64,000 nucleotides of DNA from Candidatus Latescibacterota bacterium. Its GTDB lineage: Bacteria > Latescibacterota > UBA2968 > GCA-2709665. Below, in pieces: positions 28,017-62,053 of the stretch (its first letter is position 1; the number at the start of each line of letters is the position of its first letter). The notes below the pieces were generated by a model that saw only the letters and a program-made list of their open reading frames with translations, did not search any database and was not told where the DNA came from. The stretch is from assembly GCA_963667175.2 (NCBI GenBank), contig CAXXXF010000006.1:384001-448000 (forward strand), written 5' to 3'. A program made the position numbers and the translations under genes.

Positions 28017-29450
28017 ATGAATTTCGACACGTACGCTATGGATCGGGAGTTTTACGACGAGATGTTTCTTCCGGACGGCAGTCCCAGGGAGCACTGCCGC
28101 CCGCTTTTCGAAGCGCTGAGCGATCTCTCCAGGGAAGAACTTTCGAGCATCCAGGACCGGGTAACGCGTTCTTTTTCCAACGAGGGGATCACGTTTACCG
28201 TTTACGGCGACGAGGAAGCCACGGAACGCATCATCCCGGTCGACTGCGTGCCGAGGGTCCTATCGGGCGCCGAATGGGGTCAACTCGTTAACGGACTCAC
28301 CCAGCGCCTCGCCGCCCTCAATCGCTTTCTCCAGGACATATATAACGAGGCACGCATCATAGAAGACGGCGTTATCCCGGTGGATATGGTTAAGGGTTGT
28401 CCGCAGTACCGCGTGGAAATGCGCGGCGTTTCTCCACCCCATAGCGCCTGGGTTTCGATCTGTGGGACCGACCTCGTTCGCACCAACGACGGCTTTCTGG
28501 TCCTTGAAGACAACCTGCGCGTCCCCTCGGGTGTTTCGTATATGGTAGCGAATCGTAAGGCGGTGAAGGCAAGTCTGCGCCGCCTCTACAGACGTTCCCG
28601 CGTACAGGACGTGGAACATTATGGCAGGCTGCTGCGCGAGATTCTCGTCGATCTCGCTCCGGGCGGGCGGTCCGAACCCTGCATCGTGCTGCTGACGCCC
28701 GGCGTTTACAATTCGGCTTTCTACGAGCACATGTTTCTTGCCCGCGAGATTGGCGCTGCGCTTGTCGAGGGGCGTGACCTCCTCGTCAACGACGGCTTTG
28801 TCTACATGCGCACGACCACCGGCCTCCGGCGGGTGGACGTGGTCTACAGGCGCGTCGACGACGACTTTCTCGATCCCCTCGCCTTTCGCGCGGATTCCCT
28901 TCTTGGCGTGCCCGGCTTGCTCCACGCCTACAAACTTGGCAACGTGACCCTTGTGAACGCGCCGGGCACGGGTGTGGCCGACGACAAGAGCGTCTATGCC
29001 TACGTTCCGGACATTATACGTTACTACCTGGGAGAAGAGCCCTTACTGGCCAGCGTCGAGACGTACCTGTGCCGCCATCCGGAACAGCTTGAATACACGC
29101 TTGATAACCTTGAGAACCTGGTTGTAAAGCGGGTTGGCGAGTCAGGGGGTTACGGCATGCTGATCGGGCCCCACGCCACGCCGGAAGAACGCGAGGATTA
29201 CGCCAGGGAGTTGCGCGCCGACCCCGCCGACTTTATCTCCCAGCCGGTTCTGTCGCTTTCCCGCTCGCCGTGCCTGGTGGACGGCCGGTTCGAACCGCGG
29301 CACGTCGACCTGCGTCCATTTGTGCTCCACGGCCGGGAGACGCGCATCGTTCCCGGCGCATTCTGCCGGGTTGCCCTGCGTCGGGGCAGCCTTGTCGTGA
29401 ACTCAAGCCAGGGGGGCGGCGGGAAGGATCTCTGGGTCCTGGAAAACTGA
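28017..29450 (+). CDS. Circularly permuted ATP-grasp type 2 protein
   Basis: YDEM, GITFTVY, LEDNLRVPSGVSY, YRRVDDDFLDP, GVADDK, HVDLRPF, VVNSSQGGGGKD. Confidence 0.93.
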   Translation: MNFDTYAMDREFYDEMFLPDGSPREHCRPLFEALSDLSREELSSIQDRVTRSFSNEGITFTVYGDEEATERIIPVDCVPRVLSGAEWGQLVNGLTQRLAALNRFLQDIYNEARIIEDGVIPVDMVKGCPQYRVEMRGVSPPHSAWVSICGTDLVRTNDGFLVLEDNLRVPSGVSYMVANRKAVKASLRRLYRRSRVQDVEHYGRLLREILVDLAPGGRSEPCIVLLTPGVYNSAFYEHMFLAREIGAALVEGRDLLVNDGFVYMRTTTGLRRVDVVYRRVDDDFLDPLAFRADSLLGVPGLLHAYKLGNVTLVNAPGTGVADDKSVYAYVPDIIRYYLGEEPLLASVETYLCRHPEQLEYTLDNLENLVVKRVGESGGYGMLIGPHATPEEREDYARELRADPADFISQPVLSLSRSPCLVDGRFEPRHVDLRPFVLHGRETRIVPGAFCRVALRRGSLVVNSSQGGGGKDLWVLEN

Positions 29451-33027: not shown

Positions 33028-34809
<1,782 letters not shown>

Positions 34810-60079: not shown

Positions 60080-60203
60080 CGTTTCCTCCTATCTGAAAAC
60101 AGGCTCAAGAAAGGCACGAGAAAACGAACAACGGAAACTACGAAATACGCGAAAAAAACGAAAAATCCGTGGCTGCAATCAACTGTGCCCCTGGCGGCCA
60201 GCA

Positions 60204-60267
60204 TGCGGCCGCCTGCCTTGCCTGCGGCAGCAGGCAGGCGCGAATACCGCTGGGAATTTCAAAACAG
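60204..60267. repeat. 64-bp REP-like repeat, copy 2
   Basis: Matches 33028-33091. Confidence 0.85.
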
Positions 60268-60299
60268 TTGTCATGCCCCTTTGGGGCACCCATAATGAT

Positions 60300-60505
60300 G
60301 AAAATGGTTGCGTCAACAGACTTGTGTGGTAGGTTGTTGGCCACCATAACCCTTGGCTGGTCGAAGGTCGTTTTGTAGATGGTGCTATGAGCCTGAAAAA
60401 CAGTTGGACCTGGGTATCTGGAGGTATCCATTATTGTCGCCCCCTGTAAAGGGAGAGCCCGCCAAGTAGACTCTTATCCCAGCAGATACCCGACCAGCCG
60501 GATCA
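60300..60505 (+). ncRNA. Candidate IS110 bridge RNA
   Basis: Nested stems GGCTGGTCG/CGACCAGCC, AGGTC/GACCT and GGTATCTG/CAGATACC enclose two loop domains; one contains CATTAT and AAGTAG matching the element ends. Confidence 0.6.
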
Positions 60506-60522
60506 GACACAGGAGGCCTGCG

Positions 60523-61863
60523 ATGCATGTCATCTACCCTTGTTGCGCTGGTTTGGATGTCCACAAAAAGACGGTCGTTGCCTGCCGGATGAAGGCCGAA
60601 GGGTCAAAGCCGAGCCGGCGAGAGGTAAAGACCTTCTCCACAATGACCCGGCAGTTGCTGGCGTTGAGCGATTGGCTTTCTCAGTGGGGCTGCACCCACG
60701 TGGCGATGGAAAGCACCGGCGAGTATTGGAAGCCCATCTTCAACGTGCTGGAAGCCAACTTTGAAGTCTTGCTGGTCAATGCGCAGCACGTCAAACAGGT
60801 GCCAGGACGCAAGACCGATGTCCGGGATGCTGAGTGGCTGGCCGGGCTGCTGCAACACGGCTTGCTCAAAGCGAGCTTTATCCCCCCTGCCCTCCAGCGG
60901 GATTTGCGTGATCTGACGCGGTATCGCACCACATTGGTGCAGGAGCGCACCCGGGTGATCAATCGGGTGCAGAAGGCTTTGGAGGGCGCCAACATCAAGC
61001 TGTCCAGTGTGGCCAGCGATACGCTGGGCGTGTCGGGTCGGGCCATACTAAAAGGGCTCATCCAAGGCCAGGAAGATCCAGCAGCGTTAGCGGAGTTGGC
61101 CAAGGGCCGCTTGCGCAACAAGAAGGCCGACCTAGAGCAGGCGCTGACCGGCTTTTTCCGACCCCACCATCGCTTTTTGTTGAGCCACTTGCTGGTGCAT
61201 CTGGACTTTCTGGAAACACAACTTTCTCAGCTGTCCGACCAGATCGCTCAACACATTGAGGCGATGGGTGTGCCCCCAAAAGACCCGCAGCCTCCTTCGG
61301 GCGGTTCGCCCAAGCCTGCGCAGTCACCAACCGCCGCCTCGTCCAAGCCTGCGCAAGCTTCTCGGCTCCTTCCCAATCAGGCCATGGCCTTGTGGGATAC
61401 GATTCCTGGCGTCAACCAGACCGTGGCCGAGGTTATGGTGGCCGAAATGGGCGTGGATATGGGCCGCTTCCCCACCCACCGGCATCTGGCCTCCTGGGTC
61501 GGCTTAGCGCCTGGAAACCATGAAAGCGCAGGGAAACGTCAATCGGGGCGCACCACCAAAGGCAATCCTGCGTTGCGTCTTGCCCTCGTCCAGGCGGCCT
61601 GGGCGGCCTCGCGCACCAAAGACACTTATCTGTCCGCTCTCTATCGTCGGTTGGCCGCACGACGGGGCAAGAAACGCGCCTTGGTGGCAGTGGCTCATTC
61701 CATTCTCACAGCCGCCTATCATATGGCCTGTCACACACAACCCTATCAAGATCCGGGCAGCAACTATTTCGATCAGCGCAAGAAACACGACGTTGTCTCT
61801 CGGCTCTCCCATCGCCTGGAAAAGTTGGGGTACAACGTTGCGCTTACGCTACAAGCTGCTTAA
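60523..61863 (+). CDS. IS110-family DEDD transposase/recombinase
   Basis: GLDVHK, MESTG.YW, KTDVRDAEWLA, TIPGV, WVGLAP..HESAGK, ALVAVAH. Confidence 0.95.
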   Translation: MHVIYPCCAGLDVHKKTVVACRMKAEGSKPSRREVKTFSTMTRQLLALSDWLSQWGCTHVAMESTGEYWKPIFNVLEANFEVLLVNAQHVKQVPGRKTDVRDAEWLAGLLQHGLLKASFIPPALQRDLRDLTRYRTTLVQERTRVINRVQKALEGANIKLSSVASDTLGVSGRAILKGLIQGQEDPAALAELAKGRLRNKKADLEQALTGFFRPHHRFLLSHLLVHLDFLETQLSQLSDQIAQHIEAMGVPPKDPQPPSGGSPKPAQSPTAASSKPAQASRLLPNQAMALWDTIPGVNQTVAEVMVAEMGVDMGRFPTHRHLASWVGLAPGNHESAGKRQSGRTTKGNPALRLALVQAAWAASRTKDTYLSALYRRLAARRGKKRALVAVAHSILTAAYHMACHTQPYQDPGSNYFDQRKKHDVVSRLSHRLEKLGYNVALTLQAA

Positions 61864-62053
61864 ATAAAAGAAAAACAACAGGATTCTTCGAAATCTGAAA
61901 GGTTATTTTCTAAGTAGCTTCTTGGAGCGCGCTTTTGAGCGAAAGCTTACACAATGCATCCAGCGTACTGCCCTCCGGACGCATCCCCATCCGCCGGCAA
62001 GGGTCCGGTGTTGTCTTGAGGATCAGTTCACGTACGAAGAGAATAGTCTGGCA

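What the first reader, a model, noticed from the sequence alone, without database searches (positions are those of the whole stretch)
60291..60522. IS110 left end looks like a bridge RNA with readable donor guides and a junction promoter
Seen: outer stem 60355-60363/60491-60499 encloses two stem-loop domains (60365-60411 and 60413-60490). The second holds CATTAT (60429-60434), the reverse complement of ATAATG at the left end, and AAGTAG (60464-60469), identical to the right end (61912-61917). The first holds GGTGC, complementary to the left flank GCACC. Joining the ends gives CTGAAA-N17-CATAAT. Established: IS110 circles create a promoter across the junction and express a bridge RNA with target- and donor-binding loops. 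Inference: an intact RNA-guided recombinase whose fold and apparent single-C core differ from IS621. The matches are only 5-6 nt, so chance is not excluded.
Basis: partly seen in the sequence, partly recalled or inferred. Interest (0 to 1): 0.72.

Follow-up and report, generated by a model that had tools for sequence, protein, structure and literature searches.

The report
Bridge-RNA insertion sequence, ends corrected

Summary
A 1,650-bp IS110-family element lies at window 60268-61917. The genome holds 8 left and 10 right ends of it, a head-to-tail dimer, empty sites and 7 miniature derivatives.

His left end (60291) is 23 nt too far in. That removes his junction promoter, single-C core, empty site and GGTGC/GCACC target guide.

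About 100 relatives were collected. The helices covary. The 9 nt at 60397-60405 spell 5 nt of left flank + AG + the first 2 nt of the element. In relatives, 53 of 72 have their own 9-mer exactly at their own junction, against 0.02 expected. AAGTAG sits where relatives spell their own right end (57 of 72 against 0.66).

The core is AG, which is IS621's CT on the other strand. The guide that reads the left flank lies 3' of the inner hairpin. That is the order reported for IS1111-type seekRNAs, although the RNA gene is upstream as in IS110-type elements. A complete promoter lies inside the left end.

Expression is untested. This scan has already reported bridge RNAs on other DNA. Verdict: a real, active bridge-RNA element and a layout variant of a known kind.

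The parts
60268..61917 (+). Whole insertion sequence, 1,650 bp
   Evidence: 8 left ends and 10 right ends in the own genome share exactly these limits. A tandem copy joins 61917 directly to 60268.
60261..60267 (+). Left target half AAAAC plus core AG (60266-60267), outside the element
   Evidence: 6 of 7 non-tandem left flanks read AAAACAG and 1 reads AATACAG. It is identical to guide A.
60268..60296 (+). Complete sigma-70-like promoter inside the left end: TTGTCA, 17 nt, CATAAT
   Evidence: It is the only promoter-like site in 60150-60600, with 10 of 12 matches against 0.2 expected. It is not conserved in relatives. Function is inferred.
60274..60288 (+). Left-end inverted repeat TGCCCC/GGGGCA
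   Evidence: Relatives keep a stem here with different sequences. The stem is 5 bp or longer in 25 of 59 against 3% of shuffles, with 27 distinct arms. Its role is unexplained.
60285..60297 (+). Sub-terminal left-end segment that resembles RNA segment 60423-60434 in the sense orientation
   Evidence: Across the family the six variable positions next to the conserved CACC (N6) match at 3.91 of 6, against 3.00 +/- 0.09 when elements are re-paired. The reverse-complement relation is at chance (n=58). The segment is retained in the miniature elements.
60298..60305 (+). ATGAAAAT, inverted repeat partner of ATTTTC at the right end
   Evidence: Conserved in nearly all relatives. The right ends read ATTTTC-N5-AG.
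60327..60335 (+). Extended -10-like motif TGnTAnnnT shared with relatives
   Evidence: The motif occurs in the 50 nt before the outer stem in 26 of 86 relatives, against 2.3 expected. Function is inferred.
60349..60513 (+). Bridge RNA core (covariance-model match)
   Evidence: Model R1 scores 114 bits. The structure is supported by covariation.
60356..60361 (+). Outer stem, 5' strand (pairs with 60493-60498)
   Evidence: All 6 of 6 pairs have compensatory changes.
60366..60410 (+). Target-binding domain: stem 60366-69 with 60407-10, inner hairpin 60381-93
   Evidence: The stem is paired in 97.6% of cells and appears as GGTC/GACC, GATC/GATC and GGCC/GGCC variants.
60371..60379 (+). 5' strand of the target domain, a weak guide complementary to the right flank
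   Evidence: In the family the longest complementary run to the element's own right flank averages 3.83, against 2.70 +/- 0.11 when re-paired (n=59). In this genome it pairs 4-5 nt with 2 of the 3 AAC-type right flanks and about 3-4 nt with the CTTCT-type.
60397..60405 (+). Guide A: 5 nt of left flank, AG, then the first 2 nt of the element
   Evidence: Identical to 60261-60269. Among relatives, 53 of 72 have their own 9-mer exactly at their own junction, against 0.02 expected.
60412..60490 (+). Donor-binding domain: stem 60412-19 with 60483-90, small hairpin 60423-38, hairpin 60439-58
   Evidence: All 8 of 8 stem pairs and 5 of 6 hairpin pairs have compensatory changes.
60462..60471 (+). Guide B: matches the last 8 nt of the element at 7 of 8 positions (AAGTAG 60464-69 exactly), followed by 2 further nt
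   Evidence: Among relatives, 57 of 72 have their own 7-mer exactly within 130 nt after the stop codon, against 0.66 expected. The AG is invariant in 63 of 63.
60523..61863 (+). Recombinase gene, 446 aa
   Evidence: It is a distant relative of the IS621 and ISCro4 recombinases with solved structures. Residues D12, E63, D99, D102 and S335 are invariant in 78 of 78.
61905..61917 (+). Right end: ATTTTC, 5 nt, and core AG (61916-61917)

Best explanation
Window 60268-61917 is an intact, recently active IS110-family insertion sequence. Its 255-nt left end encodes a bridge RNA of about 165 nt (core 60349-60513), followed directly by the gene for a DEDD/serine recombinase.

The RNA has an outer stem that encloses two domains.

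In the target domain, the strand 3' of the inner hairpin (60397-60405) is identical to the sense strand of left flank (5 nt) + AG + the first 2 nt of the element. [quoted passage not shown] After exchange it would pair with 2 nt of the donor, which is a handshake. The 5' strand (60371-79) is weakly complementary to the right flank.

In the donor domain, the equivalent 3' strand (60462-71) spells the element's right end plus AG. A 5' segment (60423-34) resembles a sub-terminal left-end sequence.

By homology with IS621, the RNA-recombinase complex would bring the joined ends of an excised circle together with a target ..AAAAC-AG-.. and exchange strands at AG/CT.

Relative to IS621 the geometry is rotated by 180 degrees. 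The RNA's 3' guides end in AG plus 2 nt as in IS621, but they read the left flank and the right end. On the RNA's sense strand the core is therefore AG rather than CT. In this element a full promoter sits inside the left end, so RNA synthesis would not need a circle.

Shown here: the ends, the core, guide-to-flank covariation, helix covariation and catalytic residues. Inferred: expression of the RNA, the RNA-protein complex, the circle and the order of strand exchange.
For: Ends:
- 8 left and 10 right ends share the same limits. There is a tandem junction and there are empty sites.
- 7 miniature elements keep about 45 nt of left end and about 16 nt of right end between the same kind of flanks.

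Protein:
- PF01548 (E 7e-34) and PF02371 (E 8e-24).
- The IS621 recombinase is the best solved relative (E 1.4e-13).
- The five catalytic residues are invariant in 78 of 78.

Structure:
- 27 of 38 pairs have compensatory changes, in 260 cells against 80.5 in shuffles. 89.9% of cells are paired, against 32-42% when partners are slid.

Guide A:
- Using an anchor that does not depend on the guide, 5.71 of 8 variable positions are identical, against 2.65 +/- 0.15 (maximum 3.21 in 2000 permutations).
- The 9-mer is exact at the element's own junction in 53 of 72, and within 1 mismatch in 67 of 72. Controls give 0.02 and 1.5. There are 58 distinct 9-mers.

Guide B:
- The 7-mer is exact in 57 of 72 against 0.66, with 27 distinct 7-mers.

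5' target strand:
- 3.83 against 2.70 +/- 0.11.

Same layout elsewhere:
- It is seen in an ISArsp3-family copy and a Burkholderia copy.

Published layouts:
- IS621 layout: passages of PMC11208160 and PMC11208158.
- Guide order in IS110-type against IS1111-type elements: PMC11187229, passages and section 12.
Against: - There are no expression data.
- The single-sequence fold is no more stable than shuffles (z -0.78).
- No Rfam family matches.
- The 5' target strand does not pair with the CTTCT right flanks found at 3 of the 9 distinct right flanks in this genome (10 right ends, one of which is the tandem junction). Right-side recognition is therefore weak or dispensable.
- In this copy guide B has one mismatch to its own right end (C against T at the seventh base from the end).
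- Most relatives pair the segment after guide B with guide B. This copy does not.
- No guide complementary to the first bases of the left end was found.
- Permutation controls ignore relatedness among the elements.
- The comparison with IS621 rests on the papers' text, not on IS621 sequence analysed here.
Confidence: 0.85

Rival explanations
1. The element starts at 60291. The RNA is an IS621-like bridge RNA with a donor guide CATTAT for the left end and a target guide GGTGC for the flank GCACC. The core is a single C, and a promoter CTGAAA-N17-CATAAT forms only across the circle junction.
For: All the strings exist at the given coordinates. CATAAT is a good -10 box.
Against: All 8 copies, the tandem junction, the empty sites and the miniature elements put the end at 60268. 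GCACC is inside the element. TGGTGC is nearly invariant in 63 relatives whatever their flank. The -35 box for CATAAT is the element's own first 6 nt.
Confidence: 0.02
2. The left end is only an mRNA leader or regulatory structure. The identities with the flanks are recombination-site sequences read by the protein, or by DNA-DNA pairing as with the guide sequences of IS200/IS605 ends. No guide RNA is involved.
For: No expression data are available. The left end has a covarying inverted repeat and a sense-identical sub-terminal segment that could act in DNA. The fold energy is unremarkable.
Against: Helices with many compensatory changes show selection on a folded single strand downstream of promoter-like motifs. 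The protein belongs to the family in which RNA guidance has been shown experimentally (PMC11208160 and PMC11187229, passages). The guide format of 5 variable nt, AG and 2 further nt, placed 3' of an inner hairpin, matches the right guides plus handshake positions described for IS621 (PMC11208158, passages).
Confidence: 0.08
3. The layout is not really rotated. The true pairing scheme is IS621-like, and the strand assignments made here result from a wrong secondary structure or a misreading of the published convention.
For: IS621 DNA was not analysed here. An alternative long-range pairing of GGUGC (60381-85) with the donor-domain segment cannot be excluded. It is paired in 93.3% of cells, and 3 of 5 pairs have a few compensatory cells.
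Against: The stem that encloses the 5' strand, the hairpin and guide A has three covarying forms. [quoted passage not shown] An IS4321 copy set examined here shows the order 'top-strand complement first, bottom-strand match second' that PMC11187229 reports for IS1111-type elements (by eye).
Confidence: 0.12

Closest known systems
IS621 bridge RNA system (IS110 group; Durrant et al. 2024, PMC11208160; Hiraizumi et al. 2024, PMC11208158)
   Same: - A DEDD/serine recombinase with all five catalytic residues.
- The RNA is encoded upstream of the gene in a long left end.
- Two pseudo-symmetric domains, each consisting of stem, guide, hairpin, guide, stem.
- The 3' guides end in AG followed by 2 nt that read the other DNA partner (handshake).
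- A dinucleotide core CT/AG.
- No target duplication beyond the shared core.
   Different: - The 3' guide of the target domain reads the left flank (bottom strand) and the 5' guide reads the right flank. This is the reverse of IS621, so the core on the RNA's sense strand is AG.
- The long, well-matched guides are the 3' ones.
- The donor domain is multi-branched.
- There is an extra sense match to a sub-terminal left-end segment.
- The promoter lies wholly inside the left end.
- The protein is 446 aa against 326-328 aa and only distantly related (E 1.4e-13).
- No Rfam or model-level similarity was available to test.
IS1111-type seekRNAs (ISEc11, ISKpn4, ISPa11; Siddiquee et al. 2024, PMC11187229) and IS4321
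   Same: - Order of guides: the complement of the top strand lies 5' of the match to the bottom strand (seen by eye in IS4321).
- Sub-terminal inverted repeats: 7 bp in the family, 6 bp here.
- Donor contacts lie in a multi-branched region, a feature stated for many IS1111 members in PMC11208160.
   Different: - The RNA gene lies upstream of the recombinase gene, not downstream.
- The left end is long and the right end short.
- Model R1 finds nothing in the IS4321 copies (best E 0.49).
- The proteins are 25-27% identical over two segments.
ISEc21 seekRNA (IS110 type, PMC11187229)
   Same: The non-coding region is upstream, and both strands of the target are matched by short RNA segments.
   Different: ISEc21 has the bottom-strand match 5' of the top-strand match. 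This family has the opposite order.
ISArsp3 family (label in the annotated plasmid record NZ_CP043625.1)
   Same: It is the closest named relative found, at 44.7% protein identity. Model R1 matches upstream of its gene (40 bits, E 2.6e-9). Its guide A and guide B match its own left junction and right end.
   Different: It has different guide sequences and host phylum. I found no paper that describes its RNA (search).

Membership tests
IS110 family insertion sequence | Recombinase with DEDD_Tnp_IS110 and Transposase_20 domains | tested here: met
   PF01548 E 7.1e-34 (residues 9-156) and PF02371 E 8.1e-24 (residues 292-374), both above their cut-offs.
IS110 family insertion sequence | Catalytic D, E, D, D of the RuvC-like domain and the serine of the Tnp domain | tested here: met
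   E63, D99, D102 and S335 align with the IS621 residues in the phmmer alignment to 8wt6 (numbering checked against PMC11208158 passages). D12 is assigned from the GLDVHK motif at the start of the Pfam match. All five are invariant in 78 of 78 family proteins.
IS110 family insertion sequence | No terminal inverted repeats, no target duplication, site-specific insertion | tested here: met
   The ends TTGTCA.. and ..AAGTAG are not inverted repeats. Only AG is shared between the left flank and the right end. 6 of 7 left flanks read AAAACAG.
IS110 family insertion sequence | Circular intermediate with abutted ends | not testable with these tools
   The only indirect evidence is a head-to-tail dimer with exactly abutted ends in contig 2.
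Bridge RNA / seekRNA | Conserved structured RNA in the long non-coding end | tested here: met
   The model also finds it in Actinomycetota, Burkholderia and Bacillus copies.
Bridge RNA / seekRNA | Loop segments covary with the target flanks | tested here: met
   Guide A. The 5' strand against the right flank is weaker.
Bridge RNA / seekRNA | Loop segments covary with the element's own ends | tested here: met
   Right end. The first 2 nt of the left end are read by guide A. No guide was found for left-end bases 3-8.
Bridge RNA / seekRNA | The RNA is expressed and bound by the recombinase | not testable with these tools
Only promoter-like motifs are available.
IS621-type layout (IS110 group as described) | [quoted passage not shown] | tested here: not met
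   The match to the left half plus core lies 3' of the inner hairpin in both domains.
IS1111 group | Guide RNA encoded downstream of the recombinase gene in a long right end | tested here: not met
   The left end is 255 nt and holds the RNA. The right end is 54 nt.
IS1111 group | Sub-terminal inverted repeats of 7-17 bp | tested here: inconclusive
   The family has TGAAAAT / ATTTTCA, 7 bp. This copy has 6 bp, and the repeats sit at unequal distances from the two ends: 30 nt and 7 nt.
IS1111 group | Top-strand complement 5' of the bottom-strand match | tested here: met
   compared with PMC11187229.

The most novel reading that the evidence does not exclude
This family is spread over at least Chloroflexota, cyanobacteria, Actinomycetota (ISArsp3), Burkholderia and Bacillus. 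It combines the IS110-type position of the guide-RNA gene (upstream, long left end) with the IS1111-type recombination geometry: guide order, a multi-branched donor domain and a 7-bp sub-terminal inverted repeat.

It also adds a third donor contact, in which an RNA segment of about 11 nt is sense-identical to a sub-terminal left-end sequence beside a covarying hairpin.

If real and undescribed, it would be a living intermediate in the proposed move of the bridge RNA between the two ends of the element. It would also show that natural insertion can be driven almost wholly by the left half-site.
Probability: 0.35. Interest if true: 0.65.

Novelty: new variant of a known kind. Interest (0 to 1): 0.5.

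Why it matters
Bridge recombinases are being developed as programmable genome-writing tools, and almost all mechanistic knowledge comes from IS621 and close relatives.

This family keeps the IS621-like gene order but uses the opposite strand and side assignment of guides. It has a natural, fully matched handshake, an internal promoter, and natural insertion that follows mainly one 7-nt half-site. That gives a second design template. It also gives a test case for how guide geometry and the position of the RNA gene evolved between the IS110 and IS1111 groups.

The seven miniature elements define the minimal cis-acting ends: about 45 nt on the left and about 16 nt on the right.

For genome annotation, the corrected ends and target (AAAAC-AG) allow all copies, dimers and derivatives in this genome to be read correctly.

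Tried and rejected
- Rfam: only two chance matches, below the gathering scores.
- Single-sequence fold energy: not informative.
- A guide complementary to the first bases of the left end, which the rotated IS621 scheme predicts: an unbiased scan of the 5' side of the donor domain gave no clean diagonal.
- Reverse-complement relation between 60429-34 and 60292-97 across the family: at chance (1.98 against 1.91).
- Long-range pairing of GGUGC with the donor-domain segment against the local hairpin: both fit, so this stays undecided.
- Placing the recombinase in the IS110 or the IS1111 group: only pairwise comparisons were possible. IS621 gave E 1.4e-13 and IS4321 gave 25-27% identity. These are about equally distant and not decisive.
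- Looking for an IS621-like reference among other IS110-family genes on three enterobacterial plasmids: none is close to IS621, so the IS621 layout is taken from the papers' text.
- A more distant Paracoccaceae relative with several copies: its ends were read, but the core and register were unclear, so it was dropped.
- Model R1 on IS4321 and other plasmid IS110-family loci: no match.
- Literature: searches for bridge RNA with IS900/IS116/IS901/IS1110 and passages of a 2026 review and a 2026 preprint gave no description of this layout. Supplements, which are closed, and figures of PMC11208160 (Fig. 6d, Extended Data Fig. 10c, Supplementary Data 1-2, Table 5) could hold it.
- Rows dropped before counts:
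  - Of 117 loci plus the window were carried into. Truncated matches were left out.
  - 89 of those 98 parsed with the anchor pattern.
  - Elements with too little flank were left out, as stated there.

Full report
**What is there**

The window holds a 446-aa open reading frame at 60523-61863. It carries both IS110-family domains, PF01548 (E 7.1e-34) and PF02371 (E 8.1e-24). Its best solved relatives are the IS621 and ISCro4 recombinases (E 1.4e-13 and 5.5e-11). E63, D99, D102 and S335 align with the IS621 catalytic residues. Together with D12 they are invariant in 78 of 78 full-length family proteins.

**True limits of the element**

A search of the window's own genome found 23 matches, 7 of them near full length. 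A direct scan found 8 left ends and 10 right ends.

All left ends start at 60268 (TTGTCATG..), 23 nt outside his 60291.

Seven left flanks are unrelated beyond their last bases. Six end in AAAACAG and one in AATACAG. The eighth copy sits head to tail behind another copy, with 61917 joined directly to 60268.

Two unoccupied sites of the same genomic repeat read ..AAAACAG|CTTCTGAAGGAG and ..AAGACAG|CTTCAAAAGGAG.

The only bases shared by the left flank and the right end are AG (60266-67 and 61916-17). The crossover core is therefore AG, which is CT on the other strand. The element is 1,650 bp, with a 255-nt left end and a 54-nt right end.

- All his strings are at the stated places.
- ATAATG (60292-97) is 24 nt inside the element.
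- GCACC (60286-90) is also inside it and is not flank.
- His junction promoter would have a 40-nt spacer across the true junction.
- His single-C core and his empty site disappear.
- Instead, the element's first 29 nt form a complete promoter-like site, TTGTCA-17 nt-CATAAT. It is the only one in 60150-60600, with 10 of 12 matches against 0.2 expected. Relatives do not conserve it.
- A weaker extended -10-like motif just before the outer stem is enriched in the family: 26 of 86 against 2.3 expected. In this copy it lies at 60327-35.

**Relatives and RNA structure**

One scan of genome contigs gave 37 loci and one scan of metagenome contigs gave 80 of 122. The proteins are 32-64% identical and come from Chloroflexota, cyanobacteria and others. 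The upstream regions align. An anchor pattern parses 89 of 98 of them.

On 63 non-redundant RNAs, RNAalifold predicts:
- an outer stem;
- a first domain (stem plus inner hairpin);
- a second domain with a stem, a small hairpin and a larger hairpin.

For my 38-pair version, 89.9% of cells pair, against 79.9% in shuffles and 32-42% with slid partners. 27 pairs have compensatory changes, in 260 cells against 80.5. The single-sequence energy alone would not have shown it (z -0.78). Rfam has no matching family.

**Guides**

Guide A. In every member, the 10 nt after the conserved GAGCCUG of the first domain read x-N5-AG-NN. In the window, 60397-60405 equals 60261-60269. That is five flank bases, AG, and the element's first two bases.
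- I placed the junction without using the guide, at 4 nt before a conserved CATG. On that basis 5.71 of 8 variable positions are identical in 72 distinct pairs, against 2.65 +/- 0.15 when elements are re-paired (maximum 3.21 in 2000 trials). Most misses are one-base register errors of the anchor.
- The 9-mer occurs exactly in the element's own 90-nt junction region in 53 of 72 and with at most 1 mismatch in 67 of 72. Guides of other elements give 0.02 and 1.5. There are 58 distinct 9-mers, and 5 elements miss.

Guide B. The second domain has the same format after AGCACG. In the window, 60462-71 matches the last 8 nt of the element at 7 of 8 positions, and AAGTAG matches exactly.
- Relatives carry their own right-end 7-mer exactly within 130 nt after the stop codon in 57 of 72, against 0.66 expected. 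There are 27 distinct 7-mers.
- The right ends read ATTTTC-N5-AG.
- The AG of guide B is invariant in 63 of 63.

5' strand of the first domain. It is complementary to the first 4-6 nt of the right flank, but weakly. The longest run averages 3.83 against 2.70 +/- 0.11, n=59. The left flank used as a control gives 2.73 against 2.77.
- In this genome that strand pairs 4-5 nt with two of the three AAC-type right flanks and about 3-4 nt with the CTTCT-type flanks.
- Natural insertion therefore seems to follow mainly the left half-site. A 2026 preprint on half-match recombination may be relevant. I saw only its listing and the start of its abstract.

**Comparison with the known systems**

IS621. The papers state the following (passages of PMC11208160 and PMC11208158):
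- The RNA is transcribed from the junction into the left end.
- The 3' side pairs the top strand of the core plus right half (4-7 nt).
- Two handshake bases follow, which pair with the other DNA after exchange.

In this family the 3' sides have exactly the format 'right guide ending in AG, then two handshake bases'. But they are identical to the sense strand of the left flank and of the right end.

The simplest reading is the same complex rotated by 180 degrees on the DNA. The core is then CT on the antisense strand. Guide A's last two bases are a natural, almost always matched handshake with the donor.

seekRNAs. Siddiquee et al. report that IS1111-type seekRNAs, encoded downstream, have the top-strand complement 5' of the bottom-strand match. 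The IS110-type ISEc21, encoded upstream, has the reverse order (PMC11187229, passages and section 12). I saw the IS1111 order by eye in three IS4321 copies on plasmids.

The window's family has the IS1111 order but an upstream RNA gene. It also has a multi-branched donor domain and a 7-bp inverted repeat, ATGAAAAT in the left end and ATTTTCA in the right end (6 bp in this copy). Both are IS1111-like traits according to PMC11208160 (passages).

My model of the RNA finds nothing in IS4321. The recombinase is about equally distant from IS621 and IS4321. Group membership stays open.

Named relatives. The model does find the RNA upstream of an ISArsp3-family gene (40 bits), a Burkholderia copy (84 bits) and a Bacillus copy (24.7 bits). 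In the first two, both guides match their own junctions.

**Unexplained features**

1. The 5' segment of the donor domain (60423-34) resembles, in the sense orientation, the sub-terminal left-end segment 60285-96 just before ATGAAAAT.
- Across 58 distinct pairs the six variable positions match at 3.91 of 6, against 3.00 +/- 0.09.
   - The control ignores relatedness, so this is moderate evidence.
2. Between the conserved CATG and CACC the left end keeps an inverted repeat whose sequence varies. The stem is 5 bp or longer in 25 of 59, against 3% of shuffles.
3. In most relatives the bases after guide B are complementary to it (74% of cells paired). In this copy they are not.
4. GGUGC of the first domain could pair either locally or with the donor-domain segment.
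5. No guide for bases 3-8 of the left end was found.

One untested idea: the inverted repeats fold the joined ends so that bottom-strand stretches are offered to guide B and to the 5' segment.

**Activity and derivatives**

The copies are 98-100% identical. Two of them carry a 33-nt deletion.

Seven miniature elements of about 190-260 nt carry the first ~45 nt of the left end and a right end of the form ..ATTTTC-N5-AG. Between these lies host repeat DNA, with no recombinase gene or RNA. Their flanks are ..AACAG on the left and, in one case, CTTCT on the right. They are best read as non-autonomous elements moved in trans, and they delimit the cis-acting ends. One of them (contig 16) has CCAAGTAG at its right end. 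That matches all 8 guide B positions, where the full element's own end (CTAAGTAG) matches 7 of 8.

**Verdict**

This is a real, active bridge-RNA insertion sequence, a kind known since 2024 and already met several times in this scan on other DNA. Its ends, core, promoter and target are corrected here, and its guide layout does not fit either of the two published patterns as I could read them. Expression and function were not testable. Figures and supplements that I could not see may already cover this clade.

Noticed in passing
own genome: contig 15 at 819011, contig 14 at 282638, contig 6 at 456759, contig 3 at 37041, contig 16 at 134525, contig 1 at 5878, contig 10 at 54160: There are seven miniature elements of about 190-260 nt. 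Each has the IS left end (about 45 nt, including the internal promoter) and an IS-like right end around host repeat DNA. They have no recombinase gene or bridge RNA and sit in the same kind of target. They are probably mobilised in trans.
   Followed up: partly
window 60100-60267, also window 33028-33091 and other contigs (L013-L017): A genomic repeat family consists of a GC-rich palindrome followed by a T-rich tail and ending in ..AAAACAG. The IS sits at its end in the window. Unoccupied copies lie just upstream of ribosome-binding sites.
   Followed up: partly
own genome contig 2, 256751-260050: Two full IS copies lie head to tail with exactly abutted ends. This is the sequence expected for a circle junction.
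   Followed up: partly
own genome contig 4, 83523-85296; contig 6, 511924-511979: One copy is followed directly by a second 157-nt copy of the element's 3' part. Elsewhere there is a solitary 56-nt right end next to a CTTCT flank. Both are rearrangement or deletion products.
   Followed up: no
L025, L028, L058, L059, L060, L072, L115, L036, L130 (left flanks): With one mismatch allowed, 13 of 74 family members, the window's copy included, have a left flank that looks like a family right end (ATTTTC-N5-AG). The control is 4 of 58 right flanks. In L036 and L130 the target guide equals the donor guide. These elements seem to insert behind other copies or behind relatives' ends.
   Followed up: partly
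L164 (plasmid NZ_CP047272.1, 76300-78900): An IS4321-family copy lies beside merR, inside a transposon end repeat. In its downstream non-coding region, a 10-nt complement of the target's top strand lies 5' of a 7-nt match to the bottom strand, as published for IS1111-type elements.
   Followed up: partly
window 28209-28336, minus strand: The bridge-RNA model gives a weak match here (11.2 bits, E 0.14). It is probably chance and was not examined.
   Followed up: no
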